Positions 28,897-50,004 of a stretch of 64,000 nt of DNA are shown in pieces. The translations under genes were made by a program, and so were the position numbers. Within the stretch, counting starts at the first letter, position 1, and every line of letters begins with the position of its first letter. Below the pieces are notes generated by a model. That model searched no databases. It saw nothing but the letters and a program-made list of their open reading frames with translations, and was not told the origin of the DNA. Source of the stretch: a virus (Duplodnaviria; Heunggongvirae; Uroviricota; Caudoviricetes); IMG/VR virus record IMGVR_UViG_3300021399_000001, positions 69,905-133,904 of that record, one strand, 5' to 3'.

Positions 28897-28966
28897 AAGA
28901 TTGTGGGTTCGACTCCCACTCCGCTCCACCATCTATGGGGCGGTGGCGCAGCGGCAGACGCACGTG
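28897..28966 (+). other. permuted tRNA-like halves: 3' half (T-arm + acceptor + ACCA) then a 5-nt linker then 5' half (GGGGCGG + D-arm)
   Basis: GTGGG-TTCGACT-CCCAC then CCGCTCC-A-CCA at 28903-28931. tctat linker. GGGGCGG-TG-GCGC AGCGGCAGA CGC at 28937 onward. The two acceptor strands are complementary to each other (6 Watson-Crick pairs plus 1 G-U). Confidence 0.4.
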
Positions 28967-28988
28967 AAAGAAAATGGGTCTAGATTAT

Positions 28989-29063
28989 GGCTTGATAACT
29001 TATGCGGTCTGTAGTGCTGGTCTGAAAAACCAGAGGGTGATGGTTCGACTCCATCTCAAGCCA
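28989..29063 (+). tRNA. tRNA-Phe (anticodon GAA)
   Basis: Acceptor GGCTTGA/TCAAGCC, anticodon stem CTGGT/ACCAG with loop CTGAAAA, T-arm GATGG-TTCGACT-CCATC, CCA encoded. Confidence 0.7.
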
Positions 29064-29140
29064 CCATGAGGACGTTACTTGATTGGATATGCCAAACCGT
29101 TGCTTACGTCCAAGTAAAAAAATAAGAAGGAACGGTGTAT

Positions 29141-29212
29141 GGGAGACTGGCGTAATGGTAGCGTAGCAGATTCTTAATCTGTCTGGTCAGGGTTCAAATC
29201 CCTGGTTTCCTA
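29141..29212 (+). tRNA. tRNA-Lys (anticodon CTT)
   Basis: T-arm CAGGG-TTCAAAT-CCCTG, anticodon loop TTCTTAA, acceptor GGGAGAC/GTTTCCT (with G-U pairs), CCA encoded. Confidence 0.55.
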
Positions 29213-29392
29213 CCAATAAGGTTCCTATTACCTATAAAATAGGTAGGCACAAACAGCAATTTTCTTATATAAGTATTGGATGATATATAGAAAATTGAGC
29301 TGCCAAATACTAAAGGCCGTCGTTATTAAGCAAAACGAGTGCCTAGAAAAAAAGTTGATACTTAATCAAGCTTTTAGTATTTGGTATTATTT

Positions 29393-29464
29393 ATCGGTAT
29401 AGTTCAACGGATAGAACATGACACTTCTAATGTCATTATCTGGGTTCAATTCCTAGTACCGATG
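29393..29464 (+). tRNA. tRNA-Arg (anticodon TCT)
   Basis: Acceptor ATCGGTA/TACCGAT, D-arm GTTC-AACGGATA-GAAC, anticodon stem TGACA/TGTCA with loop CTTCTAA, CCA encoded. Confidence 0.65.
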
Positions 29465-29472
29465 CCACTTAT

Positions 29473-29545
29473 GGGCTTATAGTTCATCTGGTAGAACGCA
29501 TCCCTTGCAAGGATGAGGTGCCCGGTTCGAGTCCGGGTAGGTCCA
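29473..29545 (+). tRNA. tRNA-Ala (anticodon TGC)
   Basis: GGGCTTA acceptor, anticodon stem CATCC/GGATG with loop CTTGCAA, T-arm CCCGG-TTCGAGT-CCGGG, CCA encoded. Confidence 0.7.
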
Positions 29546-29549
29546 CCAT

Positions 29550-29623
29550 GTTCCACTAGCACAATTGGCTAATGCATCTGACTCTTAATCAGGGGAGTCT
29601 GGGTTCGAATCCCAGGTGGAGCA
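29550..29623 (+). tRNA. tRNA-Lys (anticodon CTT), second copy
   Basis: Acceptor GTTCCAC/GTGGAGC, anticodon loop CTCTTAA, T-arm CTGGG-TTCGAAT-CCCAG, CCA encoded. Confidence 0.5.
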
Positions 29624-29731
29624 CCAGATGGCGCGAAAGCACGGCGCCAAACCCAAAGCAGCGTCATGAACTGTACAGTGTCTTGTGTGTTTCCTATTTC
29701 CACAAGTAAAGCTAACAAAAATAGGTCGCGA

Positions 29732-29803
29732 GCTCCCATAGGCTAATGGATAGACCATTGCGCTACGGACGCAACAGTGAAGGTTCGAATCCTTCTGGGA
29801 GTG
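29732..29803 (+). tRNA. tRNA-Arg (anticodon ACG)
   Basis: Acceptor GCTCCCA/TGGGAGT, anticodon stem TTGCG/CGCAA with loop CTACGGA, T-arm GAAGG-TTCGAAT-CCTTC, CCA encoded. Confidence 0.65.
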
Positions 29804-29810
29804 CCATTTT

Positions 29811-29921
29811 GGGGAGGTATCCAAGTAGTCAAAGGAGCCAGCCGGTGAGTCTGGTGCTTATACCGGTATGCTAGCTATGACCAATAAGCTTCGCAGGTGC
29901 AAATCCTGTCCCTCCCCACCA
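29811..29921 (+). ncRNA. atypical ~108-nt tRNA-like gene (GGGGAGG...CCTCCCC-A-CCA) with TGCAAAT T-loop
   Basis: Terminal strands form an acceptor-like stem, and CCA is encoded. T-arm GCAGG-TGCAAAT-CCTGT. The interior is ~30 nt longer than any class II tRNA. No canonical 7-nt anticodon loop found (U33 is missing). Confidence 0.4.
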
Positions 29922-29926
29922 TTTAT

Positions 29927-30010
29927 GCGTCAGTATGCCTAGTAGCGAGGGCCCCGCGCTGTAAACGCGGCACGTCAGAAACACCGGTGGTGCAAATCCA
30001 TCCTGGCGCA
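29927..30010 (+). tRNA. tRNA-Tyr (anticodon GTA), class II, T-loop TGCAAAT
   Basis: Acceptor GCGTCAG/CTGGCGC, anticodon stem CCGCG/CGCGG with loop CTGTAAA, 15-nt variable arm, CCA encoded. Confidence 0.65.
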
Positions 30011-30085
30011 CCACAGCTAGACACGCACAGCAATCTTTTCTACTATTAGCGCCATTCATGCTGAAATTAGAATGTGTCTAGATTT

Positions 30086-30156
30086 AGGAGACTGGTGTAA
30101 CGGTAGCATATCCGGCTCCAACCCGGCTGGTTAGGGTTCAAATCCTTAGTCTCCTG
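30086..30156 (+). tRNA. tRNA-Trp (anticodon CCA)
   Basis: Acceptor AGGAGAC/GTCTCCT, anticodon loop CTCCAAC, T-arm TAGGG-TTCAAAT-CCTTA, CCA encoded. Confidence 0.6.
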
Positions 30157-30160
30157 CCAT

Positions 30161-30231
30161 GCCGCATTAGTTCAACGGCAGAACAGTACTTTCGTAAAGT
30201 ACATATATTTGTTCAATTCAAATATGCGGCT
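30161..30231 (+). tRNA. tRNA-Thr (anticodon CGT)
   Basis: Acceptor GCCGCAT/ATGCGGC (perfect), anticodon stem GTACT/AGTAC with loop TTCGTAA, T-arm ATTTG-TTCAATT-CAAAT. No encoded CCA. Confidence 0.6.
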
Positions 30232-30236
30232 TATAA

Positions 30237-30311
30237 CGTTCTGTAACTCAGTTGGTATAGAGTGCCATCCTGATAAGATGGAAGTCGCTGGTTCAAATCC
30301 AGCCAGAACGA
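30237..30311 (+). tRNA. tRNA-Ile (anticodon GAT)
   Basis: Acceptor CGTTCTG/CAGAACG, anticodon stem CCATC/GATGG with loop CTGATAA, T-arm GCTGG-TTCAAAT-CCAGC, CCA encoded. Confidence 0.65.
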
Positions 30312-30314
30312 CCA

Positions 30315-30735
30315 ATAAGGTTCATCCTAGAATACCTCCTTGTCGCGAAAGGGAAAAGGGTCTGCTTCAGCTAATAATATGAGAACAGCAGAGCTTGTAT
30401 TATGTATTTGCAGTATGTAAATGCCGGGAGTTCTCTTGCCCCGTAAGGTAGTCCGGAATACGCACAAGATTCGCTCGGTAACTGGATATATCGTAACTAG
30501 TAACTATCCAGGAAGTAGCTGTCCTTTGATTTTTGATAGCCGAAACTGCACGCGCGTGAAGTCGTGTGAGGTGCCCGATGGGCGTGCCAACCAATAGTAA
30601 CAAGAGGCACAATGGAGTATACACAACGCGAGTGTTAACTCCCATTCATTTATACGTCACTCGTGGCAAGTAAGATGATAGAACTGATGGATTGAGGCCC
30701 AAAGGTATTGATTCCTAACTTGCTGCGAGATTTAT
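30315..30735 (+). ncRNA. GC-enriched structured noncoding block (unclassified candidate ncRNA)
   Basis: ~420 nt with no RBS-supported ORF. GC well above the local average. Many local hairpins, for example GCCGGGAG...TCCGG. Confidence 0.3.
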
Positions 30736-30809
30736 CGGGAACTAGCTCAGTAGGTCAGAGCGGCGGCCTTATAAGCCGTGTGTCCTGGGTTCGAGTCCCA
30801 GGTTCCCGA
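30736..30809 (+). tRNA. tRNA with anticodon TAT (Ile-AUA-reading type?)
   Basis: Acceptor CGGGAAC/GTTCCCG, D-arm GCTC-AGTAGGTCA-GAGC, anticodon stem GCGGC/GCCGT with loop CTTATAA, T-arm CTGGG-TTCGAGT-CCCAG, CCA encoded. Confidence 0.55.
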
Positions 30810-30826
30810 CCAATATGGGGTCGTAG

Positions 30827-30891
30827 TGTAAAGAACACGCTCGGAAAGCAAGGGCCGAGAAAACAAAGGGCAGTACCGAGAGGCTCCACCA
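30827..30891 (+). other. degenerate tRNA-like element ending in CCA
   Basis: Has a D-arm GTGT-AAAGA-ACAC and a CTCGG...CCGAG stem but no canonical T-loop. Ends GGCTCC-A-CCA just upstream of the RBS of the 30908 gene. Confidence 0.25.
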
Positions 30892-30907
30892 ATATAAGGA
30901 AGATATA

Positions 30908-31066
30908 ATGAATAAGTATAAATTTGGTCGTATTACTTTTGGCACTATCCTTACAGTAGTGATGTTTAGTATTGGTTTTGACATCAGAACTTGGCAGTTT
31001 TGGGTGATTTATGGTTGTGCGTGGATGATGTCTTTTATGACTTTTTTGGAGGATTTTAACGGATGA
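30908..31066 (+). CDS. small hydrophobic membrane protein (52 aa)
   Basis: Not in the ORF track. ATG after AAGGAAG. Translation MNKYKFGRITFGTILTVVMFSIGFDIRTWQFWVIYGCAWMMSFMTF... Confidence 0.45.
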   Translation: MNKYKFGRITFGTILTVVMFSIGFDIRTWQFWVIYGCAWMMSFMTFLEDFNG

Positions 31067-31209
31067 TGAAATTCTTTTACGCTTTTATAGCAGCCTTTAA
31101 TTTATTTTGCTTTTATACTTTTCAAGATAATGCTATATGGGTACGTGGTCTTAGTCTTTCATGTTGTCTTTTAATGTGCCTATGTACAATAATTGAAGTG
31201 AATAGATAA
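31063..31209 (+). CDS. small hydrophobic membrane protein (48 aa)
   Basis: ATGA overlap with the previous ORF. Translation MMKFFYAFIAAFNLFCFYTF...CCLLMCLCTIIEVNR. Confidence 0.4.
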   Translation: MMKFFYAFIAAFNLFCFYTFQDNAIWVRGLSLSCCLLMCLCTIIEVNR

Positions 31210-31307
31210 TGCGTCCTTACCGAATCAGCAAACGGCGTGGTCTGCAAAACCATTGATAAGCGGGGCAGCACCGCTAGGACGCTCCAAAAAAAAGAAGAAG
31301 GAGTTTT

Positions 31308-31514
31308 ATGGCAATAAAAATTATTAAACATGGTCAACTGATATTAAGAGCGACTTGTCCTCGTTGTGATTGTATTTTTGAATTTATGCCATCTGATATG
31401 GATATTAAAGGGCCTTTATATGCGCCAATTGAATTTATAAATTGTCCAGAATGTGGCAATGAAATCACTTGGTGGTATGAAGATAAATCAGGACGCAAAT
31501 ATGAGTATATGTAA
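31308..31514 (+). CDS. small zinc-ribbon protein (CxxC...CxxC)
   Basis: RBS GAAGGAG. IKIIKHGQ..TCPRCDC...CPECGNEI is paralogous to the 43028 ORF. Confidence 0.55.
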   Translation: MAIKIIKHGQLILRATCPRCDCIFEFMPSDMDIKGPLYAPIEFINCPECGNEITWWYEDKSGRKYEYM

Positions 31515-31525
31515 AGGAGAAAAGT

Positions 31526-32500
31526 ATGTTTGATCTAATTTTAGCTGTTGTTGTTATTATTGCAGGTTTTGGCGTGGCAAGTGTAGTGTTCCCAGACGTA
31601 ACGAAGCGTAATGGTGACACGAAAAGTAGGAGTTCGATTCGCACAGTTATTCGTGCTGCTGCTTTCGTTATTGCCGTAGGGTTGATTATTCTTTCTTGTA
31701 TTTCTTATGTGCCAACTGGTTATACTGGTATTGTGACAACTTTTGGTAAGGTACATGAACACACACTTGATGCAGGCATTAATTTTCATGCGCCTTGGGA
31801 TAATGTAATTACTATGGATAATCGTGAACAACGTGCATCTTTCCAGTTGGAAGCATTTTCAAAGGATATTCAGCAAGTAGATATTCAAGGTTCTATCAAC
31901 TATAATATTGATAAGCTAACCGCTATGAATCTATACAAGGACGTAGGCACCGGATATGTCAATATTCTAATTGGTCCTCGTATTCAGGAAGATGTAAAGA
32001 TTGTTATTGCTCGTTATACCGCTGAAAATCTAATTGCTAGTCGTCAAGAGGCAGCTAATGCTATTGAGACTCTTATTCGTGATGAATTAACTTCAAAGGG
32101 TATTAATGTAATTTCTCTTGCGGTGGAAAATATTGATTTTACTGATGCTTTTGAATCTGCTGTTGAGGCAAAGCAGGTTGCTACGCAAGAAAAGCAGCGT
32201 GCTCAGACCCAGCAAGAGCAGGCAACTATGGAAGCAGAACAAGCCGCAAAGCGTAAGAGAATTGAAGCAGAAGCCGCGGCAGAGGTAGCAAAGGTGCAAG
32301 CAGACGCAGACGCATATTCTACACAGGTGAAGGCTGCCGCAGAAGCAGAAGCTAATGAAAAGATTAATAAGTCTCTAACTGAAGAACTTGTAAATTATCG
32401 TCAAATTCAGCGTTGGAATGGAGAACTTCCTCAATTTGTTGGCGGCGGCTCCACTATTCCAATCCTTAATATGGGCGAAACTACCGAAACTACGGATTAA
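31526..32500 (+). CDS. SPFH / band-7 (HflC/prohibitin-like) membrane protein
   Basis: RBS AAAGGAGAAAAG. N-terminal TM helix followed by YVPTGYTGIVTTFGKV and a typical SPFH core. Long AEAEA coiled-coil tail. Confidence 0.7.
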   Translation: MFDLILAVVVIIAGFGVASVVFPDVTKRNGDTKSRSSIRTVIRAAAFVIAVGLIILSCISYVPTGYTGIVTTFGKVHEHTLDAGINFHAPWDNVITMDNREQRASFQLEAFSKDIQQVDIQGSINYNIDKLTAMNLYKDVGTGYVNILIGPRIQEDVKIVIARYTAENLIASRQEAANAIETLIRDELTSKGINVISLAVENIDFTDAFESAVEAKQVATQEKQRAQTQQEQATMEAEQAAKRKRIEAEAAAEVAKVQADADAYSTQVKAAAEAEANEKINKSLTEELVNYRQIQRWNGELPQFVGGGSTIPILNMGETTETTD

Positions 32501-32513
32501 TATAAATACTTAT

Positions 32514-32541
32514 AACGCACGGGAAACCGTGCGTTTTTTCT
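32514..32541 (+). terminator. rho-independent terminator
   Basis: AACGCACGG-gaaa-CCGTGCGTT stem followed by TTTTTCT. Overlaps the -35 of the next promoter. Confidence 0.7.
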
Positions 32542-32542
32542 A

Positions 32543-32571
32543 TTTGACTTTGAATAGAAATTATAGTATAA
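32543..32571 (+). promoter_or_regulatory. consensus promoter copy 3
   Basis: TTGACT, 17-nt spacer, TATAAT. Conserved leader TTATTTTAGAAAGAGAAAAGGAG. Confidence 0.65.
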
Positions 32572-32604
32572 TTATTTTAGAAAGAGAAAAGGAGAGCAAA
32601 ATAT

Positions 32605-32787
32605 ATGTCTATTGTTTACACTTTGATTAGCCCTTTGAAGAACTCTGTTGAAACTCGCGTAAAAATTACTAATTTTGAGGAACGAGAACATGGTATTTAT
32701 TTCATTTGGGAAGGTAGCCAATGTTTTGTAAACTGGAATGTATTGGGCACCTATACTCTTGTGGAGGAAGATAAACATGACACTTGA
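32605..32787 (+). CDS. hypothetical protein
   Basis: RBS AAGGAGAGC; 60 aa. Confidence 0.5.
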   Translation: MSIVYTLISPLKNSVETRVKITNFEEREHGIYFIWEGSQCFVNWNVLGTYTLVEEDKHDT

Positions 32788-33238
32788 CGAATGTAGAGTG
32801 GAAACTCAAAAGCACATAGAAAAAGTGCGTAAGTATATCCGCTTTTTTACCGATAGATTAACTACTCGTGGTGTAGAACATGATGCCGCAAAACTTGAAT
32901 CTCCAGAGGTTGAATTATTTGCTGAGCATACTGAACAACTTGCCACATTAGAATATGGATCACAAGAATATAAGCAAGCATTAGAAGCTCTAAAGCCAGC
33001 TTTAGAGCATCATTATGCTACTTATCGTCATCATCCAGAACATTTTCCTAATGGTATTAATGATATGAATTTGATTGATTTAGTGGAATTAATGGCTGAC
33101 TGGAAAGCTTCTAGTGAGCGTCATAATAATGGAAATCTTTTAAAAAGCATAGAAATTAATGCCAAACGATTTGGTATTAGTAATCAATTAACACAGATAT
33201 TGCTTAATACAGCAAAGATTATGGAAGAACATGAATAA
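32777..33238 (+). CDS. hypothetical protein (His-rich HHY..YRHHPEHF)
   Basis: ATG-32777 after GGAGGAAG (ORF track 32738). Confidence 0.5.
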   Translation: MTLDECRVETQKHIEKVRKYIRFFTDRLTTRGVEHDAAKLESPEVELFAEHTEQLATLEYGSQEYKQALEALKPALEHHYATYRHHPEHFPNGINDMNLIDLVELMADWKASSERHNNGNLLKSIEINAKRFGISNQLTQILLNTAKIMEEHE

Positions 33239-33372
33239 TAAACAACAATTAACTCATGATTTTATAAAATTCGTAATGGAAAATTATGGAATACGATTAA
33301 CTATGACTGAATCAGATGAAGAAACATTTGAAACTTTTTTCCCTGATTTAGTTGAAATATTGGAGAAAGAAA

Positions 33373-33483
33373 ATGATACAAATTAATTTATTTGGATTTT
33401 TATTAATTGGCGCGACAGGATATATATTTGGATGGTTCGCGCGAAAAGTATACGAAAGGAGAAATATAAATGATAACACATAA
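33373..33483 (+). CDS. small membrane peptide (36 aa)
   Basis: Not in the ORF track. GGAGAAAG RBS. Translation MIQINLFGFLLIGATGYIFGWFARKVYERRN... Confidence 0.35.
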   Translation: MIQINLFGFLLIGATGYIFGWFARKVYERRNINDNT

Positions 33484-34018
33484 TGATGGTACTATTAAAA
33501 TTGAAATGCCCGATTTACATATACCAGAATCAGAAGTGGATAATGTTGTTCGCAATTTTCTTCATTCACGTGATGTAAAGGCGATTGAAACTAAGATTGA
33601 AGATTTAAAGCAAACGCTTTTATCATTGGAAAATAATAATAATCGTCTTCAAAAGCGTTTCAATGAAATTTATGAAGAAAAATGGAAAGACAATGAACTA
33701 ATGGAAATGAAGCTAAAGATGGAGCGCGCAATTCGTGAGAGAAGCTATGGCTTCCCGCTAACCGAAGAAGAACGGAATCGTTCCTATGACTGGCAGCGCA
33801 AGCACGATTCAGAAGTTCATTCTAATCCAGAAGGCTATCATGGTGCTTCTGGCGGCGGTTTCTCATACACTTTTTATCCTACTGGACTAGGCACTACTTG
33901 TAATTGTTTTTGTAATCAATGTAAGGCAAAGGCCATTCGTGAAGCGGGCGAAAAATGGTATGATAGATGCAAGGAGCTTGGTGGCGTTTGTGAAGTTGTT
34001 GGATGGGAGGCTTTCTAA
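33470..34018 (+). CDS. hypothetical protein (coiled coil + Cys-rich C-terminus)
   Basis: RBS AAAGGAGAAATATAA; 182 aa. Confidence 0.5.
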   Translation: MITHNDGTIKIEMPDLHIPESEVDNVVRNFLHSRDVKAIETKIEDLKQTLLSLENNNNRLQKRFNEIYEEKWKDNELMEMKLKMERAIRERSYGFPLTEEERNRSYDWQRKHDSEVHSNPEGYHGASGGGFSYTFYPTGLGTTCNCFCNQCKAKAIREAGEKWYDRCKELGGVCEVVGWEAF

Positions 34019-34411: not shown

Positions 34412-34602
34412 AATTTATTTATGATGATAATTTGTATGATGCAATGAAAGACGTATATGATTATGCTTATCGTGTTTTCTTTGGAAAGGCTCCAATAGAT
34501 GTTATATATCGTATGAATTATGGCAACAAGGGAGCAGAGCAAAAAGTTTTACAGTATATTTGGGACACCTATATTGAACCGAAAGGAGAAAATAATGAGT
34601 AA
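34408..34602 (+). CDS. hypothetical protein
   Basis: 64-aa ORF; ATGA overlap with the upstream gene. Confidence 0.4.
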   Translation: MKFIYDDNLYDAMKDVYDYAYRVFFGKAPIDVIYRMNYGNKGAEQKVLQYIWDTYIEPKGENNE

Positions 34603-35185
34603 TATTTACTTTACAAGCGACACTCATTTTTCACATAATCGCGGCTTTCTTTATGAGCCACGCGGTTTTTCATCTATTGAAGAACATGATGAGACTATTA
34701 TAGAAAATTGGAATAAAGTAGTAAAACCAGAAGATATTGTTTTTCTTCTTGGTGATACTATGTTAAATAATAATGATAAAGGAATTGAATGTCTTAATAA
34801 GTTAAACGGCTCTATTTGGTTTATTCGCGGCAACCATGATTCAGGAGAGCGCATTTATCGTATTTATCATGAGTGTCCACATATTCATTTTTTAGAGGGC
34901 GGTTCTGAAAATTTTGCTACAATTGCTACAATTAAGAAATTTAATGGCTATAATGTATACTTATCACATTATCCAACTTACACCAGTTATATTGAAAATA
35001 TGGCGCCATTAAAGAAACATATGCTGAATTTTCATGGACATACACATTCAAAAAATAAGTTTTATCAAGATATTCCATTCATGTATAATGTAGCACTTGA
35101 CGCGCATAATAACGCGCCAGTATCTTTTGATGAAATTATTTCAGATATTGAAGCAAAAGCAAACGAATGTATTGCTATGCTATAA
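34595..35185 (+). CDS. calcineurin-like metallophosphoesterase
   Basis: ATG-34595 after AAAGGAGAAAATAATG (ORF track 34520). Motifs SDTHFSH, LGDTM, RGNHD and HGHTH. Confidence 0.65.
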   Translation: MSNIYFTSDTHFSHNRGFLYEPRGFSSIEEHDETIIENWNKVVKPEDIVFLLGDTMLNNNDKGIECLNKLNGSIWFIRGNHDSGERIYRIYHECPHIHFLEGGSENFATIATIKKFNGYNVYLSHYPTYTSYIENMAPLKKHMLNFHGHTHSKNKFYQDIPFMYNVALDAHNNAPVSFDEIISDIEAKANECIAML

Positions 35186-45056: not shown

Positions 45057-45060
45057 CCAT

Positions 45061-45119: not shown

Positions 45120-45383
45120 ATGGAAAGAGAATTTGCCATTCTTCATAATCATTTTATAGATGAAAAAACTCGTGGTTTAGCTGCGATAGCATTATTTCAG
45201 AAAGGCAAAATTCGTATTTATGCTGATAGTATTGATATTCCAAATATTATTAAGTTATATTATTTAGCAGAACATTTGGCACATGTCAGTATAGAAAAAT
45301 TTGTTGGACGAATTTTAAAATCTATTGATAATAAAAAATTTTATTGTAAACATAGATGGTATATAAAAGAAAATAATATTTGA
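45120..45383 (+). CDS. hypothetical protein
   Basis: ATG-45120 after GTGAAAGGAATTAATAAA (ORF track 45102). Confidence 0.45.
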   Translation: MEREFAILHNHFIDEKTRGLAAIALFQKGKIRIYADSIDIPNIIKLYYLAEHLAHVSIEKFVGRILKSIDNKKFYCKHRWYIKENNI

Positions 45384-45408
45384 CTTTCTTCTAAAATCGT
45401 AGTATAAT
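45380..45408 (+). promoter_or_regulatory. consensus promoter copy 14
   Basis: TTGACTTTCTTCTAAAATCGTAGTATAAT. Confidence 0.6.
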
Positions 45409-45443
45409 AATTACAGTAAAGGGAAAGAGAAAGGATACATTCA

Positions 45444-45590
45444 ATGATTAAATGTGAAACTTTTGAGCACGATTACCAAGTAGTAAATTTTTGTAATGAG
45501 AATCACATTACTAAAGAAAATATAATTTCATTGCATTTTAATCCTGAATTGTTATTTAGTTATAGATTATTCTATGAGGTAAATGATTGA
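45444..45590 (+). CDS. hypothetical small protein (48 aa)
   Basis: RBS GAGAAAGGATACATTCA; not in the ORF track. Confidence 0.35.
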   Translation: MIKCETFEHDYQVVNFCNENHITKENIISLHFNPELLFSYRLFYEVND

Positions 45591-45615
45591 CTTTTAGCAG
45601 AAAATCTGCTATAAT
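45587..45615 (+). promoter_or_regulatory. consensus promoter copy 15 (drives the tRNA / ncRNA block)
   Basis: TTGACT, 17-nt spacer, TGCTATAAT. Confidence 0.6.
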
Positions 45616-45695
45616 AAATATGTAAGGCGGCCACAGCAAATATTATTCAAGCAGTAATCTTTTAAATTATGTAGCTAAAAATCCGCCTAGAATTT

Positions 45696-45769
45696 GGGGT
45701 TGTAATCGAATTGGCATAGGTACTGCGCTTAGAACGCAGGTTTTGAGAGTTCGACTCTCTCCTTCCCCA
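45696..45769 (+). tRNA. class-I tRNA with anticodon TAG and tandem U-U mismatches in the acceptor stem
   Basis: Exact 74-nt standard geometry. Acceptor GGGGTTG/CTTCCCC, anticodon stem CTGCG/CGCAG with loop CTTAGAA, short variable arm GTTTT, T-arm GAGAG-TTCGACT-CTCTC, CCA encoded. Confidence 0.5.
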
Positions 45770-46385
45770 CCAAGACACATTCAGCAACTCAAAGTTTATC
45801 TTTGAATCGTCAGTTCAAATCTGACCTCGCGCATCGCGCAAGTAGCATAGTGGATAATGCAAAAGACAGAAAATGTGTCTAGTACGAGACTTGCAATCAC
45901 CACCCGCCTTCGGTGATAAAACAGGGGTTAACACTCGTTTGTGAGTAACGCTCGGAAAACGCCTGTATAAAAAAGAAAGAAGCGAGGACAGCCAGCCCAA
46001 CAGCTGTGGGTATGGTGGTAACTCTCACATCCTAGGAGTCCTGACGCTGTTATTGGACTTAATACTCAACGGAGTTGGTACCCAAACAAATCCTAGGATG
46101 TTATGGTATCAAGTGAAGAGCCTTCTCGTGGCGATACTGATTTCGACGAATCTTCACAATGAAGAACGGCTAGAATCGCGTTCCCTATAATTCCTCGTAG
46201 AAATTATAGTCTTAGTCACTAGCAATAAATATTAAAGAGCGCATTTCCCGTCCTGATCAGCGAGTAGAAATGCCAAAGAGCTCCCAGTGATATTGGGCGG
46301 GTGCGAGCACCCGTATAAGGGAACCCGGGGTGTACGAGAAAGCGTGGATAAGAGTGGACCGGCCACGATGAAATAGCTCACTTTA
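45770..46385 (+). ncRNA. GC-enriched structured noncoding block (unclassified)
   Basis: ~615 nt with no ORF. Contains a T-arm-like hairpin GTCAG-TTCAAAT-CTGAC, many long-range stems (for example GGGTA...TACCC and GTGAAGA...TCTTCAC), and an S-element-like AAATTATAGTCTTAG. Confidence 0.3.
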
Positions 46386-46389
46386 ATAT

Positions 46390-46418
46390 TTGACTTTTTC
46401 TTCAAATCATGCTATAAT
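46390..46418 (+). promoter_or_regulatory. consensus promoter copy 16 (drives the structured RNA and HNH gene)
   Basis: TTGACT, 17-nt spacer, TGCTATAAT; leader TATTATAGTAAAGAGGAAAGG. Confidence 0.6.
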
Positions 46419-46439
46419 TATTATAGTAAAGAGGAAAGG

Positions 46440-47140
46440 AAGTAGATACTCTATTTAATAAAATGGTTGAACCAAGTGAAGAAGAGCTAACCACTCTGCT
46501 TGGGCTATCTGAATAACAGCCATACGATTTAGCGGGATACTACTAAATCGCGGCCGCAAAATCAGTAATGATTAGCGATAAAGAGAAACTCTGAATGTTA
46601 AGGGTAGGCGCTTGGTTATCCGCTAACAAAAGCACGATTCCTCACGGCATCATAATAGAAGTCAAGCGTTAAAAGCGTAGACTGAATCCTAGTTAGGGTT
46701 TAGCTGGTGACTTGTATCAAACCTAGGAAAGACCAACAAGATGCTATTGTCGTTGAAACCTAGAAATAGGCTATAAGTGAGGTTTACGGTAAAAGTAGCT
46801 TAAAGTGACAACAAGTTCTTGGTATTAGAACAAATAATACATATTTGATTTATTATTAAAGAATTTGCTGAATGGTTTAAGTGAAATTTGGGAGTAGACA
46901 ATCTCCCCGTTGCTAGTCGAAAGACAGGGTGAAGAAGTTAAAGGGTCGCTACCTTTGGCTCAGCCTTCATCTTCAACGTGGCTGAATATGTTTAGAAGGA
47001 TAATACAAGTACGGCGAAGGTCGCAACGGTTTTATTAAATAGGGTATTTGCCCTAAACTTTAAGGTAGCATTGGAGTAATTAACCAATGAGACAAAGATG
47101 CTCCTACATCGGCTTAAAGTTTAAAATATAATCATAGGAG
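46440..47140 (+). ncRNA. structured noncoding block upstream of the second HNH endonuclease (candidate ribozyme or ncRNA)
   Basis: ~700 nt with no ORF. Follows promoter copy 16. Contains ACTACTAAATCGCGG (similar to the group I intron R element GACTAAAT) and a downstream TAGTCG. Confidence 0.3.
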
Positions 47141-47148
47141 TGATTTAT

Positions 47149-47559
47149 ATGAAAGCAGGAGATAAAAGAATTTGCCAAATTTGTGGCACAGAATTTGAAA
47201 TTATTGATAAAGGATGGAGTAGAAAATACTGTTATAAATGCTCTCCAAAAATTGATAAATCTGGAAAAACTTTGACATACGCGGAAAATATTACGATAAA
47301 ACGTCGTGCTATTAAAGAAATGTTAATTGCTTATAAAGGTGGAAAATGTGAACGATGTGGCTATGATAAGTGTAATAGAGCCTTAGAATTTCATCATATT
47401 AACCCACAAGAAAAAGATTTTGGTATTTCTAACAATATCAATCGTAATATTGAAGAATTAAAATCAGAAGTTGATAAATGTATTCTTTTATGTTCCAATT
47501 GCCATGCCGAAGTTCATCAAGAACTTTATGATAAAGGTCTTTTAAAAGAAGAATTTTAG
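47149..47559 (+). CDS. HNH endonuclease with N-terminal zinc finger
   Basis: ATG-47149 after TAGGAGTGATTTAT. CQICGTEF...CYKCSP is a zinc ribbon. EFHHINP...LLCSNCHAEVH is the HNH motif. Confidence 0.7.
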   Translation: MKAGDKRICQICGTEFEIIDKGWSRKYCYKCSPKIDKSGKTLTYAENITIKRRAIKEMLIAYKGGKCERCGYDKCNRALEFHHINPQEKDFGISNNINRNIEELKSEVDKCILLCSNCHAEVHQELYDKGLLKEEF

Positions 47560-47678
47560 GCGGATTCGCTCAGTGGTTGAGCAGTCGGCTGGTTGGATAG
47601 AAATAGTCCTCGTTGAGTGCAAGACTCAAATCCAGCACCATTAACCGACCTAGGGGAGTTCAATTCTCTCATCCGCCG
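47559..47678 (+). tRNA. tRNA (anticodon GGT? Thr-like) with a 49-nt insertion in the anticodon loop
   Basis: Acceptor GGCGGAT/ATCCGCC (perfect), D-arm GCTC-AGTGGTT-GAGC, T-arm GGGAG-TTCAATT-CTCTC, CCA encoded. Anticodon-stem strands GTCGG (47584-47588) and CCGAC (47645-47649) are separated by 56 nt. Confidence 0.45.
47590..47643 (+). other. minihelix-like element nested in the anticodon loop of the preceding tRNA
   Basis: GCTGGTT then an 18-nt spacer then TTGAG-TGCAAGA-CTCAA then ATCCAGC-A-CCA. The T-loop variant TGCAAGA resembles the TGCAAAT loops seen elsewhere. Confidence 0.35.
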
Positions 47679-47961
47679 CCATAGTCACGTAGAGGACTTA
47701 TTCTCTATGCTTGCTCAATGTCCAACTTATGTGAACGCGCGAAGTCACATAAGAGAGTCAACCCTTCCGAAGTACGAAGGAACCCCTAAAATGGTCTGTG
47801 GGGATAAACGGCATCATGAACCGTCTAATGTAGTTGACAAAGAGTATAGGTTCGTTAGGCTCCTAAGAAAAGCCTATCACCATCACGATAGCAAATAAGT
47901 GAATAAACGGATACGCGGTTAGCTGACCTTAAAGCTATTCTAATCTAGAGGAGAATAAAAT

Positions 47962-48501
47962 ATGAATGACGTAAGACTAAAGATTCTACCGCCTTGGACT
48001 ATTACAATTCGTAAGTTTGAGGCATTATTCGACGGTGATCCGCAGATTGCTTGTAATTGTAATTTCGCAGGTTCTAATCCTTCCATCGTATTAGCCTGTA
48101 ATAACGGCGACAAGGTCGCTGCCCTACAGCAGATTCTTCCTTCAGAAGTTTCTTTTGGTAATATTAAGCTAGCTGTAAGTGTAGATGGTACTCCTTCTAA
48201 TCGTGCTTTTACCAGCAAGGTTGAACTATTTGATACAGCTTTTAAAGGCAATCCTGTTTACGCTTATTCTGTATGTCCAGCTGAAGAAGGTTATCAATGG
48301 ATTGGAACTACTTATGTAGTATTTAATAACTGCGTAGTACAATTCGCTGCTGATAATCTAAATGATTGTCATGGCGTTATTAGTACTCTATATGAAACCA
48401 TTGCTAATGAGCTTCTAACTGGTCCTGCTACTGAAGGTGTATTTTATAATACAAATGTAGAGCGTGCAGGACTTGGTAAACCTCTAGGTGAGTGGCCATA
48501 A
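47962..48501 (+). CDS. hypothetical protein
   Basis: RBS AGAGGAGAATAAAAT; 179 aa. Confidence 0.5.
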   Translation: MNDVRLKILPPWTITIRKFEALFDGDPQIACNCNFAGSNPSIVLACNNGDKVAALQQILPSEVSFGNIKLAVSVDGTPSNRAFTSKVELFDTAFKGNPVYAYSVCPAEEGYQWIGTTYVVFNNCVVQFAADNLNDCHGVISTLYETIANELLTGPATEGVFYNTNVERAGLGKPLGEWP

Positions 48502-48514
48502 GCCACTCCATTGT

Positions 48515-48587
48515 GGGCCTATAGTTCAGCGGCTAGAATGTCCGGTTGTCTCCCGGAAGATCGCAGGTTCAAATCCTGTTAGGCTCG
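48515..48587 (+). tRNA. tRNA-Asp (anticodon GTC)
   Basis: Acceptor GGGCCTA/TAGGCTC, anticodon stem TCCGG/CCGGA with loop TTGTCTC (unusual U37), T-arm GCAGG-TTCAAAT-CCTGT, CCA encoded. Confidence 0.55.
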
Positions 48588-48679
48588 CCAGTTTGGTGCT
48601 TATAGTTTCGACCATTTAAAACTCGAAACTAATTTTAGACTCAATCAGCAATTATTTACTTGCATGTGGGGCCGGAAGT

Positions 48680-48735
48680 ATTGGTTTGACTCCAGTTCTC
48701 TCCGCCATATGGGGAGATAGTGTAACGATAGCACG
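48680..48735 (+). other. permuted tRNA-like halves: T-arm + TCTCTCC-G-CCA, then tat linker, then GGGGAGA + D-arm
   Basis: ATTGG-TTTGACT-CCAGT then TCTCTCC G CCA at 48680-48707. GGGGAGA-TA-GTGT AACGATA GCAC at 48711-48735. The acceptor strands are mutually complementary. Confidence 0.4.
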
Positions 48736-48759
48736 CCGTATAGTATGAGTCTAGTATAG

Positions 48760-48833
48760 CTGGGTGTAGCGCAGTTTGGTAGCGTGCTAGATTTGGGATC
48801 TAGAGGCCGTGAGTTCGAATCTCACCACCCAGA
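48760..48833 (+). tRNA. tRNA-Pro (anticodon TGG)
   Basis: Acceptor CTGGGTG/CACCCAG, anticodon stem CTAGA/TCTAG with loop TTTGGGA, T-arm GTGAG-TTCGAAT-CTCAC. No encoded CCA. Confidence 0.6.
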
Positions 48834-48887
48834 CTTCTTAACCGGGTTTGAAGATTATCCCAATTGTAAAATCTTCCCCTTTCTTTC

Positions 48888-48916
48888 TTGACTTTTTCTA
48901 GAATTTTTGATATAAT
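48888..48916 (+). promoter_or_regulatory. consensus promoter copy 17
   Basis: TTGACT, 17-nt spacer, TGATATAAT. Confidence 0.6.
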
Positions 48917-48946
48917 AAATATATCAAAGGAAAGGAAATAAATAAT

Positions 48947-49174
48947 ATGGATAAGAAAGAATTGTCCGCGCAAGCAACCAAGGCTGAATTTGTTAAGTCT
49001 ATTCATCATTGGTTAATGAATACGCTTAAACAAAATGGTAAAGAAGAATATAGTGATTGTTTTACTATTGAAGGTTCTAGTATTATGTGCCAACTGCCCG
49101 CGGATTATTTTAATCTGTACTCTATTCCTGCGAATACTAAAATTGAAATGAAATTTATTTCTAAGAAATCTTAA
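48947..49174 (+). CDS. hypothetical protein
   Basis: RBS AAAGGAAAGGAAATAAATAAT. Downstream of promoter copy 17. Confidence 0.5.
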   Translation: MDKKELSAQATKAEFVKSIHHWLMNTLKQNGKEEYSDCFTIEGSSIMCQLPADYFNLYSIPANTKIEMKFISKKS

Positions 49175-49210
49175 AGTTTTAAGCCGTTACAGCAATCTTT
49201 TTTATAAGTG

Positions 49211-49275
49211 GTTAATTTATTTTGATTGAGAAGCAAAATGATAGATGGTTCAAGTCCATCACGATTAAAATTAAC
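49211..49275 (+). other. three-arm tRNA-like element (closing stem + hairpin + T-arm), no CCA
   Basis: GTTAATTT...AAATTAAC closing stem enclosing ATTTTG-attgagaag-CAAAAT and GATGG-TTCAAGT-CCATC. Confidence 0.3.
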
Positions 49276-49385
49276 GGCTTAGTATTATTATAAGAGACAA
49301 GGCACATGCAGCAATTACTTTTATAATTACAAAATATAGATATTGGACAGTATATTAAAGTAAATTATTAGTGCCTTGAATTTAT

Positions 49386-49457
49386 GCCGGCGTGGCGCAA
49401 CGGTAGCGCAATCGCCTTGTAAGCGATAGGTTGTGGGTTCGATTCCCTCCGCCGGCT
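49386..49457 (+). tRNA. tRNA-Thr (anticodon TGT)
   Basis: Acceptor GCCGGCG/CGCCGGC, D-arm GCGC-AACGGTA-GCGC, anticodon stem ATCGC/GCGAT with loop CTTGTAA, CCA encoded. Confidence 0.65.
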
Positions 49458-49479
49458 CCATAACAAAAAGGAGTTTACT

Positions 49480-49905
49480 ATGAGATTTTTCGCTAAGAAG
49501 AAATTAAATCCAAATTCAAGTTTTGTTCCACCTTCAGTTGAAAAGAAATGCGAACATAAATTTCAAGATTTCCCATGGTATTTAACTTGGGATATACAAT
49601 ATAATCGTTACATGATTAAAGTAATTGAACCTTATGTTTGTATCTTTTGCGGTGAAAGACGTGACAAAGTTTTGGCCTCTTATACAGGTACAAATTATAA
49701 AGAGGGTGACAAACTTTTAAACGAACTCCGAAAACGTTTTGATAATCACATTAAATATCAAGAAGAAGTAGAAGATATGATAAATGATATGCTGCTTGTA
49801 GACCCAGAATATTTAAAGTGGTATCACTTATTACGCGAACAACAAGACCCTTCTACATCGCGCCCACAAGCTAATTTTAATAAAAGTCCAGAATTGAAAT
49901 TATAA
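49480..49905 (+). CDS. hypothetical protein
   Basis: RBS AAAAAGGAGTTTACT; 141 aa. Confidence 0.5.
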   Translation: MRFFAKKKLNPNSSFVPPSVEKKCEHKFQDFPWYLTWDIQYNRYMIKVIEPYVCIFCGERRDKVLASYTGTNYKEGDKLLNELRKRFDNHIKYQEEVEDMINDMLLVDPEYLKWYHLLREQQDPSTSRPQANFNKSPELKL

Positions 49906-49924
49906 TTAATAGGCACACACAGCA

Positions 49925-50004
49925 ACTTACATAGATAATCTATGAGTCATCGGTTCGAGCCCGATTATGCAAGCCAAAATTTTGCGTATCGCCCAGTCGG
50001 TAGG
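49925..50004 (+). other. minihelix-like element ending TATGCAA-G-CCA, then aaatt linker, then tRNA 5' half (TTGCGTA + D-arm GCCC-AGTCGGTA-GGGC)
   Basis: TTACATA then CATAGATaATCTATG hairpin then ATCGG-TTCGAGC-CCGAT then TATGCAA G CCA at 49925-49974. TTGCGTA-TC-GCCC... at 49980 onward. Both 5' 7-mers pair with TATGCAA. Confidence 0.4.

What the first reader, a model, noticed from the sequence alone, without database searches (positions are those of the whole stretch)
28897..50004. Three loci where a tRNA 3' half with encoded CCA is followed after 3-5 nt by a tRNA 5' half with a matching acceptor strand (permuted order)
Three loci show the same layout: 28903-28931 then 28937-28966, 48680-48707 then 48711-48735, and 49951-49974 then 49980-50004. 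Each has a T-arm plus 3' acceptor strand plus discriminator plus CCA, a short linker (tctat, tat, aaatt), then a 5' acceptor strand plus canonical D-arm. The upstream 3' strand and downstream 5' strand are mutually complementary: CCGCTCC with GGGGCGG, TCTCTCC with GGGGAGA, TATGCAA with TTGCGTA. This is the order expected for circularly permuted or split tRNA genes, or for products of recombination between tRNA copies. It is not expected for ordinary tRNA arrays. Seeing the same architecture three times argues against chance.
Basis: seen in the sequence. Interest (0 to 1): 0.8.

Follow-up and report, generated by a model that had tools for sequence, protein, structure and literature searches.

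The report
Phage Y-RNA-like tRNA mimics, Ro partner
The three "back-to-front tRNA" loci are real, but they are most likely not tRNA genes: they are tRNA-shaped modules inside a repeated small-RNA frame (11 copies here) that travels with a phage Ro60-like protein, so they look like a new, widespread variant of bacterial Y RNAs.

Summary
At all three loci a T-arm, 3' acceptor strand, discriminator and CCA are followed after 3-5 nt by a complementary 5' acceptor strand and a D-arm. Pairing is 7/7 at each locus, against 0-6 (median 3) at ordinary tRNA junctions in the window. A fourth such locus lies at 45773-45880.

Each locus sits inside a conserved frame: an 8-10 bp closing stem P1 (5' wAGRC... 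/ ...GYCUw-G 3'), then an unpaired A-CAGCAA plus U-rich tract, a variable insert, and an A-rich tract. The window holds 11 frames, all on the tRNA strand inside tRNA arrays; only 4 carry a tRNA-like insert. In 140 related phage contigs I found 276 distinct frames, 71 of them with this module. P1, the T stem and the acceptor hairpin covary. The "anticodon" is not conserved between orthologues.

Best reading: these are Y-RNA-like (YrlA-like) tRNA mimics bound by a phage Ro paralogue, a new variant of a known kind. The binding and the function are inferred, not shown.

The parts
28856..28981 (+). P1 is AGACCCAT (28856-28863) paired with ATGGGTCT (28974-28981). CAGCAA lies at 28865-28870. A cis hairpin CTGGA-CTGAAAA-TCCCG follows, then T-arm 28903-28919, acceptor hairpin CCGCTCC / ACCATCTAT / GGGGCGG at 28921-28943, and D-arm 28946-28961.
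   Evidence: The MFE fold has P1 closing a multibranch junction, z = -2.8. The orthologue L003 2933 keeps ACCA.
29244..29345 (+). Framed element without a tRNA-like insert. P1 is TAGGCAC/GTGCCTA; CAGCAA lies at 29254.
   Evidence: fold z = -3.0.
30017..30081 (+). Short framed element. P1 is CTAGACAC/GTGTCTAG; CAGCAA lies at 30028.
   Evidence: fold z = -3.0.
45625..45688 (+). Atypical framed element with only a 6-bp P1 (AGGCGG/CCGCCT); CAGCAA lies at 45634.
   Evidence: fold z = -1.5. This is the weakest member.
45773..45880 (+). T-arm 45809-45825; acceptor hairpin CTCGCGC / ATC / GCGCAAG (6/7 pairs, no CCA); D-arm 45845-45860. The trans stem is AAAGA/TCTTT.
   Evidence: fold z = -3.4.
48636..48753 (+). 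P1 is TAGACTCA/TGAGTCTA; CAGCAA at 48646-48651; T-arm 48680-48696; acceptor hairpin TCTCTCC / GCCATAT / GGGGAGA; D-arm 48720-48734.
   Evidence: A 14-sequence RNAalifold run supports P1, the T stem and an 8-bp acceptor hairpin; 14 of 22 pairs show compensatory changes.
49180..49281 (+). Framed element with a 10-bp P1 (TAAGCCGTTA/TAACGGCTTA). It has only a T-arm-like hairpin, GATGG-TTCAAGT-CCATC.
   Evidence: Rfam tRNA model scores 19.9 bits, below threshold.
49298..49378 (+). Framed element without a tRNA-like insert. P1 is CAAGGCAC/GTGCCTTG.
49910..50026 (+). P1 is TAGGCACA/TGTGCCTA; CAGCAA at 49920-49925; T-arm 49949-49965; acceptor hairpin TATGCAA / GCCAAAATT / TTGCGTA; D-arm 49991-50006. 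The trans stem is ATAGA/TCTAT.
   Evidence: fold z = -3.5. The best Rfam hit is YrlA RF02553, full length, 23.6 bits, E 0.0026, below the 69-bit threshold.
50858..50929 (+). Short framed element. P1 is TAGATAGA/TCTATCTA.
51016..51088 (+). Atypical framed element. P1 is TAGACGCC/GGCGTCTA, with 15 nt between the 5' arm and CAGCAA.
36359..37891 (+). Gene for the Ro60-like protein (Pfam DUF2828 + DUF7788; PHROG 850 'RNA-binding protein'). This is the inferred protein partner of the framed RNAs.
31526..32500 (+). Band-7/SPFH protein gene (context: RNA-repair island).
   Evidence: Pfam Band_7, E 7e-29. A Band-7 gene also lies beside the Ro-like gene in phages Baudelaire and LAh_9.
34520..35185 (+). 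Metallophosphoesterase gene (context).
   Evidence: Pfam Metallophos; PHROG 547 phosphoesterase.
38810..39196 (+). Gene for a cREC_REC cyclic-phosphate-processing domain protein (context).
   Evidence: Pfam PF20274, E 4.5e-18.
39689..40339 (+). RNA ligase gene (context).
   Evidence: Pfam RNA_ligase PF09414, E 3e-18; PHROG 548.

Best explanation
The loci are Y-RNA-like non-coding RNAs of the YrlA type. They are encoded in many copies inside the phage's tRNA operons.

Each RNA has three parts:
- A closing stem P1, formed by its own 5' and 3' ends.
- An unpaired A-CAGCAA plus U-rich strand next to that stem.
- A variable 'cargo'.

In 4 of the 11 window copies the cargo is a complete tRNA mimic: T-arm, 7-8 bp acceptor hairpin, D-arm, and an anticodon-stem analogue that leads into P1. 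Because the RNA's ends lie in the 'anticodon' side, this reads in DNA as a 3' half followed by a 5' half.

Inferred mechanism:
1. The RNAs are co-transcribed with the flanking tRNAs. RNase P and 3' processing of those neighbours release them.
2. P1 with the CAGCAA strand is the docking site for the phage Ro60-like (DUF2828) ring protein.
3. The tRNA-shaped cargo recruits, or acts as a decoy for, tRNA-recognising factors. This would serve the adjacent RNA-repair set (Band-7, phosphoesterase, cREC, RNA ligase) during infection.
4. Copies that keep N-CCA plus a junction-like spacer and a 7-bp acceptor stem are probably opened by RNase P. The result would be a two-piece, CCA-ended RNA, as shown experimentally for M. 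smegmatis YrlA.

The modules probably descend from tRNA-tRNA junctions of such arrays, but they are old lineages.
For: Shown here:
- 11 frames lie on the tRNA strand within arrays. The frame consensus comes from 274 elements. Strand bias is 276 versus 4.
- CAGCAA is predicted mostly unpaired next to P1.
- 71 modules have U8-A9, canonical D and T arms and a 7-bp acceptor. After computational un-permuting, 58 of 71 are called as cloverleaf tRNAs.
- Compensatory changes occur in P1, the T stem and the acceptor hairpin.
- The trans anticodon stem averages 3.62 of 5 pairs, against 2.60 +/- 0.10 in the swapped control.
- N-CCA opens the acceptor loop in 23 of 71 modules, against about 1.1 expected. 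The spacers resemble real junction spacers.
- The DUF2828 protein has the Ro60 fold.
- Frames lie directly beside this gene in Mycobacterium phages Baudelaire and Faith1, Bacillus PK-3 and Chewbecca, Listeria 805405-1, Enterococcus GVEsP-1, Felix-O1-like pEP20, Fusobacterium phiKSUM, Staphylococcus S-CoN_Ph12 and Aeromonas LAh_9.
- 47 of 54 metagenomic Ro-anchored loci have at least one frame.
- Rfam YrlA is the top, full-length but sub-threshold hit for locus 3 and for the Faith1 module.

From the literature:
- YrlA has the layout 5' stem strand with a Ro motif, T arm, acceptor-like stem-loop, D arm. M. smegmatis YrlA is cut by RNase P and receives CCA (PMC4201824).
- YrlA 'resemble circularly permuted tRNAs', with a proposed dimeric pre-tRNA origin (10.1101/312249).
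- Phage phiLo Ro60 binds RNAs that have a 5'-3' stem flanking a bulge with a CGAA motif (PMC12135203).
Against: - No binding, expression or processing data exist for these RNAs. The protein-RNA link rests on gene neighbourhood alone.
- The published bacterial Ro-binding motif GNCGAAN0-1G is absent; CAGCAA takes its place.
- Rfam YrlA scores at most 23.6 bits against a threshold of 69, and gives nothing for loci 1 and 2.
- In the window the Ro-like gene lies 6-13 kb from the frames, not within the 4 kb used by Chen et al.
- 7 of 54 Ro-anchored loci showed no frame within 10 kb. In the Vibrio phage only a partial frame was seen.
- A competing cis hairpin can replace the trans stem in most modules.
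Confidence: 0.75

Rival explanations
1. These are genuine circularly permuted tRNA genes. The precursor is circularised, for example by the phage RNA ligase after the P1 region is trimmed. RNase P and 3' processing then open it at the acceptor, giving functional decoding tRNAs as in Cyanidioschyzon merolae or Thermofilum.
For: The gene order is permuted, with encoded N-CCA, junction-like spacers and 7-bp acceptor stems. After un-permuting, 58 of 71 modules are called tRNAs. The phage encodes an RNA ligase, a cREC protein and a phosphoesterase.
Against: - The anticodon is not conserved between orthologues: GTG versus GTA at locus 2, and TAA, CAA or GAT at locus 3. Loops of 3-9 nt and stop or odd 'anticodons' occur.
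- 48 of 71 modules lack CCA, and many acceptor loops are only 3-5 nt.
- The G3:U70 pair and other identity features are not kept in orthologues.
- The folds show no bulge-helix-bulge geometry. Instead a long, asymmetric internal loop carries CAGCAA.
- Seven of the eleven frames have no tRNA cargo.
- The implied isoacceptors are already encoded normally.
Confidence: 0.07
2. The frames are Ro-independent structural spacers or processing elements of phage tRNA operons. They might act as insulators that help RNase P or RNase Z cut neighbouring tRNAs, or as stability elements. The tRNA-like inserts would be incidental.
For: In the window and its relatives the frames abut tRNA 3' ends and are followed within 5-13 nt by the next tRNA. 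Other structured RNAs (ROOL, drum, DUF3800-XI) share this context.
Against: In Faith1, Baudelaire, phiKSUM, S-CoN_Ph12 and LAh_9 the frames sit directly beside the Ro-like gene, with no tRNA array around them. The T5 tRNA region (28-41 kb) has no such frames, and no Ro-like ORF lies in 1-50 kb. The conserved single-stranded CAGCAA next to a conserved helix is typical of a protein-binding site.
Confidence: 0.1
3. These are decaying remnants of tandemly duplicated tRNA genes, or recombination debris, with no function of their own.
For: N-CCA plus spacers look like tRNA-tRNA junctions. The CCA has eroded in more distant relatives.
Against: Base pairing is kept through compensatory changes in P1, the T stem and the acceptor hairpin. 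The frame is conserved across phages of Actinobacteria, Firmicutes, Proteobacteria and Fusobacteria. Orientation is strictly single-stranded. The modules have no close tRNA parent.
Confidence: 0.04
4. These are DNA-level elements: MITE-like mobile repeats or recombination sites whose terminal inverted repeats are the 'P1' arms.
For: The repeats are short, carry terminal inverted repeats (TAGAC.../...GTCTA) and are scattered in intergenic DNA.
Against: The arms differ between copies yet stay complementary, whereas a transposable family shares one TIR sequence. G.U pairs extend the stems, which only makes sense in RNA. Orientation is 276 to 4 in favour of the transcribed strand. No target-site duplication or transposase is evident.
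Confidence: 0.02

Closest known systems
YrlA Y RNAs of bacteria and mycobacteriophages (Chen et al. 2014, PMC4201824; Wang et al. 2018; Rfam RF02553)
   Same: - The ends pair into a stem next to a short, conserved, single-stranded protein-binding motif.
- The order is T-arm, then an acceptor-like stem-loop, then the D-arm, so the RNA is a circularly permuted tRNA mimic.
- The genes lie with a Ro60-type protein and RNA-repair genes.
- Several Y RNAs occur per locus, some without the full tRNA mimic (like YrlB).
- A 7-bp acceptor version exists that RNase P opens and that ends in CCA (M. smegmatis).
   Different: - The motif is A-CAGCAA, not GNCGAAN0-1G.
- The partner is the DUF2828/DUF7788 branch. 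It resembles Ro60 by fold, but sequence HMM searches against PDB chains do not detect it.
- Up to 11 copies are interleaved with tRNA genes, rather than 1-2 beside rsr.
- One third encode N-CCA plus a junction-like spacer.
- Many keep a cis anticodon-arm-like hairpin.
- Rfam YrlA scores stay far below threshold.
Thermus phage phiLo Ro60 with Yrl1/Yrl2 (PMC12135203; PDB 9L5Y)
   Different: phiLo uses a canonical TROVE protein and a CGAA motif. Its RNAs were not described as tRNA mimics or as part of tRNA arrays.
Circularly permuted tRNA genes of Cyanidioschyzon merolae, other algae and Thermofilum pendens
   Same: The 3' half lies upstream of the 5' half, with a short linker at the acceptor end. 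Leader and trailer pair with each other.
   Different: Those have a bulge-helix-bulge motif cut by the splicing endonuclease and a circular intermediate. They have conserved anticodons and supply essential isoacceptors. None of this holds here.
Two-piece (permuted) tmRNA (Rfam RF04321)
   Same: It is a bacterial precedent for a permuted tRNA-like gene whose linker is removed to give two base-paired pieces with a CCA end. It gives a weak hit at locus 1 (17.7-20 bits).
   Different: There is no tag reading frame, no pseudoknots and no conserved G3:U70. ARAGORN finds no tmRNA. The score is far below the 47-bit threshold.
tRNA-like RNAs released by RNase P (mascRNA/MEN-beta)
   Same: They are tRNA-shaped non-decoding modules recognised by tRNA-processing enzymes.
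   Different: They are eukaryotic, in normal order, and have no Ro-type frame.

Membership tests
YrlA / bacterial Y RNA (RF02553) | The 5' and 3' ends pair to form the closing stem. | tested here: met
   All 11 window elements have a 6-10 bp P1. It covaries among copies and orthologues.
YrlA / bacterial Y RNA (RF02553) | The tRNA-like domain has the order T arm, acceptor-like stem-loop, D arm, with tRNA tertiary-interaction nucleotides. | tested here: met
   4 of 11 window elements and 71 modules in relatives have TTCRANY T loops, U8-A9 and A14..GG..A21 D loops. 58 of 71 are called cloverleaf after un-permuting.
YrlA / bacterial Y RNA (RF02553) | A conserved Ro-binding motif GNCGAAN0-1G lies near the 5' end. 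| tested here: not met
   The frame consensus is wAGRCnCnnA-CAGCAA. The CGAA-type motif is absent from the window elements.
YrlA / bacterial Y RNA (RF02553) | The sequence reaches the Rfam gathering score of 69 bits. | tested here: not met
   The best score is 23.6 bits at locus 3. Loci 1 and 2 give no YrlA hit. Faith1 scores 21.7 bits.
YrlA / bacterial Y RNA (RF02553) | The RNA is encoded near a Ro60 orthologue and on the same strand. | tested here: met
   The Ro-fold gene lies at 36359-37888 on the same strand, 6-13 kb from the frames. In 10 of 11 cultured phage lineages the frames are immediately adjacent to it.
YrlA / bacterial Y RNA (RF02553) | The RNA is physically bound by the Ro60 protein. 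| not testable with these tools
   This needs RIP/CLIP or EMSA.
Circularly permuted tRNA genes (algal/archaeal type) | The 3' half lies upstream of the 5' half, with complementary acceptor strands. | tested here: met
Circularly permuted tRNA genes (algal/archaeal type) | A bulge-helix-bulge motif forms where leader and trailer pair. | tested here: not met
   The folds show an 8-10 bp P1 followed by a long asymmetric internal loop: CAGCAA plus U-rich on one strand and about 7 A-rich nt on the other.
Circularly permuted tRNA genes (algal/archaeal type) | A conserved, functional anticodon and identity elements supply a needed isoacceptor. | tested here: not met
   The anticodon changes among orthologues, loop lengths are irregular and normal genes already supply these isoacceptors.
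Circularly permuted tRNA genes (algal/archaeal type) | A circular RNA intermediate and a mature normal-order tRNA are produced. | not testable with these tools
   This needs circular RT-PCR or RNA-seq.
Two-piece permuted tmRNA (RF04321) | The sequence reaches the model score, and has a tag ORF and a conserved G3:U70. | tested here: not met
   The score is 17.7-20 bits against a threshold of 47. ARAGORN finds no tmRNA. G3:U70 is lost in orthologues.
Ro60/TROVE protein family (for the 510-aa protein) | An alpha-helical HEAT-like ring plus a C-terminal vWA domain with a MIDAS motif. | tested here: met
Ro60/TROVE protein family (for the 510-aa protein) | Sequence-level match to the Pfam TROVE domain or to Ro60 chains. 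| tested here: not met
   Pfam gives only DUF2828 + DUF7788. phmmer and profile HMM searches against PDB sequences find nothing.
MITE-like DNA repeat | A shared terminal inverted repeat sequence, both orientations, and target-site duplication. | tested here: not met
   The arms differ between copies but stay complementary. Strand bias is 276:4. G.U pairs occur in the stems.

The most novel reading that the evidence does not exclude
The N-CCA-bearing modules are true RNase P substrates. They mature into two-piece, CCA-ended RNAs that can be aminoacylated. Alternatively, the phage's cREC, phosphoesterase and RNA-ligase set re-joins them into normal-order tRNAs. Either way the phage would carry a reserve of permuted tRNAs that host anticodon nucleases cannot disable. 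This would be the first permuted-tRNA maturation pathway in bacterial viruses.
Probability: 0.07. Interest if true: 0.9.

Novelty: new variant of a known kind. Interest (0 to 1): 0.6.

Why it matters
If correct, three consequences follow.

- **A function for DUF2828.** This 'domain of unknown function' protein is among the most widespread in large phages. tblastn finds it in 704 cultured phages, including Felix-O1-like, Listeria P100-like, Enterococcus, Staphylococcus, Bacillus and cluster-L mycobacteriophages. More than 7800 homologues turned up in metagenomes. It would be a Ro60 paralogue with its own, so far unannotated, Y-RNA family. That family is absent from Rfam 15, and I found no description of it in the papers I could search.

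- **Tractable systems for an old question.** What Ro-Y RNPs and their tRNA-mimic modules actually do could then be studied in well-characterised phage-host pairs.

- **Support for the dimeric-tRNA origin of Y RNAs.** These RNAs retain N-CCA, tRNA-junction-like spacers and anticodon-arm relics. They look like intermediates between tRNA dimers and Y RNAs, which supports the published idea that YrlA arose from dimeric pre-tRNAs.

There is also a practical point. Several annotated 'hypothetical proteins' and start codons in cultured phage genomes overlap these RNAs and are probably wrong.

Tried and rejected
- **Alanine identity or a mini-tmRNA.** Window loci 1 and 2 have G3:U70, but their orthologues do not (GAGGAGA/TCTCCTC and GGGGTAG/CTACCCC). 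There is no tag ORF, and the tmRNA models score far below threshold.
- **Known ribozyme or other Rfam family.** Permissive Rfam scans of the inter-tRNA regions found nothing relevant.
- **Decoys for specific anticodon nucleases.** Some modules mimic Tyr, His or Asn (GUN) anticodons. The 'anticodon' set is heterogeneous and not conserved, so I did not adopt this idea.
- **Recent copies of neighbouring tRNAs.** Rejected by identity to 1560 genuine tRNAs.
- **Further frames with variant motifs.** Relaxed searches gave only AT-rich noise.
- **Literature I could not reach.** Burroughs & Aravind 2016 (NAR 44:8525) is said to predict tRNA-like RNAs with Band-7 and Rot/TROVE modules. I could not retrieve it by three identifiers. 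The Sim et al. 2020 review and the Chen 2014 supplement were also unavailable. Prior description of this frame therefore cannot be fully excluded.
- **Phage identity.** A megablast of the tRNA region and a tblastn of the 938-aa ORF against cultured phages gave no close relative.
- **T5 negative control.** This covers only 1-50 kb of the T5 genome.

Full report
**Observation**

ARAGORN and Rfam find about 30 ordinary tRNA genes in two array regions, 28.2-30.8 kb and 40.6-51.0 kb. They also find ROOL, drum and DUF3800-XI RNAs, which fits a large phage. The three loci are not called as tRNAs. The locus 3 coordinates are about 2 nt off. Each acceptor pairing is 7/7. Real tRNA-tRNA junctions in the window give 0-6 pairs (median 3). 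7/7 occurs in only 6 of 812 non-cognate combinations.

Every locus is bracketed by an 8-10 bp inverted repeat. The 5' arm is followed after 0-3 nt by CAGCAA. A script found 11 such frames in the window. All are on the tRNA strand and inside the arrays. Nine are clear-cut. Two are atypical: 45625 has a 6-bp stem, and 51016 has a 15-nt gap. One frame, at 45773-45880, holds a fourth permuted tRNA-like module without CCA. One has only a T-arm-like hairpin. The other six have AU-rich inserts with no tRNA features. MFE folds show P1 closing a multibranch junction, with z-scores from -1.4 to -3.5.

**Relatives**

Two protein-anchored scans of viral contigs gave 140 loci, mostly from contigs of 100-200 kb. 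These hold 276 distinct frames on the coding strand and 4 on the other strand.

The consensus is ww-AGRCnCnnA-CAGCAA-(U-rich) ... (A-rich)-nGnGYCUw-G. CAGCAA is predicted to be mostly unpaired next to P1.

Seventy-one frames carry the T-arm, acceptor hairpin and D-arm module. These modules have U8-A9, GCUC-AAUUGGUA-GAGC-type D arms and 7-bp acceptor stems.

RNAalifold on 14 members of the locus 2 class recovers P1, the T stem and an 8-bp acceptor hairpin. Compensatory changes occur in 14 of 22 pairs, and G.U pairs extend P1.

A five-pair 'anticodon stem' forms in trans between the segment after the D-arm and the segment before the variable loop. It averages 3.62 of 5 pairs, against 2.60 +/- 0.10 when the segments are swapped between modules. 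A competing cis hairpin is possible in most modules.

**Not decoding tRNAs**

After computational un-permuting, ARAGORN of 71 modules as cloverleaf tRNAs. The 'anticodon' differs between orthologues: GTG or GTA at locus 2, and TAA, CAA or GAT at locus 3. It is sometimes 2 or 4 nt long, or a stop anticodon. The G3:U70 pair of window loci 1 and 2 is not kept in orthologues. Forty-eight of 71 acceptor loops lack CCA.

N-CCA is nevertheless strongly enriched: 23 of 71 loops against about 1.1 expected. The spacers that follow it resemble real junction spacers (TAT, TATATG, TCTAT).

No module is a recent copy of any of 1560 genuine tRNAs in these phages. Best identity is 0.51-0.79, with no consistent isotype. 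The modules are therefore old, separately evolving tRNA mimics. Their form suggests descent from tRNA-tRNA junctions.

**The protein partner**

Between the two arrays lies an RNA-repair island:

| Window coordinates | Gene product |
|---|---|
| 31526-32497 | Band-7/SPFH |
| 34520-35182 | metallophosphoesterase |
| 36359-37888 | 510-aa DUF2828 + DUF7788 protein |
| 38810-39193 | cREC cyclic-phosphate-processing domain |
| 39689-40336 | RNA ligase |

tblastn finds homologues in 704 cultured phages. In mycobacteriophages Baudelaire and Faith1 the homologue is annotated 'Ro-like RNA binding protein'.

**Linkage of RNA and protein**

The P1-CAGCAA frame lies directly beside this gene in 10 of 11 cultured lineages examined.

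| Phage | Frames | With tRNA-like module | Position |
|---|---|---|---|
| Mycobacterium Baudelaire | 1 | 0 | just 3' of the gene |
| Mycobacterium Faith1 | 3 | 1 (the middle one) | tandem, just 3' of the gene |
| Bacillus PK-3 | 6 | 2 | tRNA array upstream of the gene |
| Bacillus Chewbecca | 4 | 1 | tRNA array upstream of the gene |
| Listeria 805405-1 | 3 | 0 | tandem, just 5' of the gene |
| Enterococcus GVEsP-1 | 3 | 2 | just 5' of the gene |
| Escherichia pEP20 (Felix-O1-like) | 4 | 1 | tRNA array just 3' of the gene |
| Fusobacterium phiKSUM | 1 | 0 | just 5' of the gene |
| Staphylococcus S-CoN_Ph12 | 3 | 0 | tandem, just 3' of the gene |
| Aeromonas LAh_9 | 8 | 0 | six just 5' of the gene; Band-7 and RNA ligase 2 downstream |
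| Vibrio R10Z | partial only | 0 | 5' arm plus CAGCAA upstream of the gene; no 3' arm found |

Several of these loci have no tRNA array nearby. The frame therefore follows the protein and not the tRNAs.

Among metagenomic Ro-anchored loci of at least 15 kb, 47 of 54 have at least one frame within 10 kb.

The whole tRNA region of phage T5 has no such frames, and 1-50 kb of T5 has no Ro-like ORF. One isolated candidate lies at 39584-39660.

**Comparison with the literature**

- Chen et al. 2014 defined YrlA as a 5' stem strand with a Ro motif, then a T arm, an acceptor-like stem-loop and a D arm. They showed that M. smegmatis YrlA, which has a 7-bp stem, is cut by RNase P and receives CCA. They searched only genomes annotated with a TROVE domain (22 phages), and they discarded hits that overlapped tandem tRNAs.
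- Wang et al. [quoted passage not shown] They propose an origin from dimeric pre-tRNA.
- A 2025 study showed that phage phiLo Ro60 binds RNAs with a 5'-3' stem flanking a bulge that carries CGAA.
- Rfam's YrlA model is the top, full-length hit for window locus 3 (23.6 bits, E 0.0026) and for the Faith1 module (21.7 bits). Both scores are far below the 69-bit threshold. Loci 1 and 2 give no YrlA hit.

**Verdict**

The loci work like YrlA-type Y RNAs but fail two membership criteria: the sequence motif and the model score. I file them as a new variant of a known kind. They form a P1-CAGCAA Y-like RNA family that pairs with the DUF2828 branch of Ro60-like proteins. The family is often multi-copy inside tRNA operons, and a subset of copies carry permuted tRNA mimics.

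Shown here: the sequence anatomy, the covariation, the protein fold and the gene linkage.

Inferred only:
- co-transcription with the flanking tRNAs and release by their processing;
- binding of the Ro-like protein to the frame;
- RNase P opening of the N-CCA copies;
- a role in RNA repair or quality control during infection.

I could not read Burroughs & Aravind 2016, so some prior computational mention of these RNAs cannot be excluded.

Noticed in passing
window 46448-47042, 44660-44756, 28222-28269: ROOL RNA (331 bits), drum RNA (50.3 bits) and DUF3800-XI RNA (64.5 bits) lie in the same tRNA-array regions.
   Followed up: no
window 42223-42342 and 47559-47681: These are tRNA genes with long inserts in the anticodon loop. 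tRNA-Val(CAC) has a 44-nt insert containing a T-arm-like hairpin (ARAGORN intron mode; Rfam tRNA 44.8 bits). A tRNA-Thr(GGT) call has a 49-nt insert and appears only in ARAGORN intron mode.
   Followed up: partly
window 29811-29922 and 50511-50617: Two further tRNA-like stretches are in normal order but carry inserts of about 40-50 nt, and no tool calls them. The first has GGGGAGG...GCAGGTGCAAATCCTGT-CCCTCCCC-ACCA. The second has GCGGTGG...GTAAGGTGCAAATCCTTAC-CCGCA without CCA.
   Followed up: no
window 45061, 45380, 46390, 48888: A near-identical promoter-like box, TTGACTTTyTTCTAAAAT..TAGTATAaT, recurs. It is followed about 30 nt later by a strong RBS and a small ORF or an RNA such as ROOL. 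It looks like a repeated strong sigma-70-type early promoter.
   Followed up: no
window 41319-41795 and 47140-47559: HNH/NUMOD4 homing-endonuclease-like genes are interspersed in the tRNA arrays, as in T5.
   Followed up: no
L141 5484-5627; L149 6495-6584; L151 4899-5000: Annotated features in cultured phages overlap framed RNAs and are probably mis-annotations. The cases are Baudelaire gp61, Staphylococcus phage S-CoN_Ph12 CDS0026, and the first ~100 nt of the Aeromonas LAh_9 DUF2828 ORF, where the protein match starts at 5001.
   Followed up: partly
L152 (phage T5) 39584-39660, minus strand: A single frame-like element, TACTCTTAT-TA-CAGCAA...ATAAGAGTA-G, lies downstream of T5.080, a single-pass membrane protein. 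It is near tRNA-Arg and stable RNA X. No Ro-like ORF occurs in T5 1-50 kb. The annotated 'tRNA-like stable RNAs' of T5 are in normal order, not permuted.
   Followed up: partly
L148 (Faith1) 4472-4728: In mycobacteriophage frames the P1 5' strand reads UGGAC or UGGUC. This recalls the GGUC of the vertebrate Y RNA Ro-binding helix (GGUCCGA). It hints that the CAGCAA frame and the classical Ro site may be homologous (motif).
   Followed up: no
window 50647-50719: A weak tRNA call (37.7 bits) has anticodon ATG (His), a poorly paired acceptor stem (3/7) and no CCA. It may be a pseudogene or another tRNA-like RNA.
   Followed up: no
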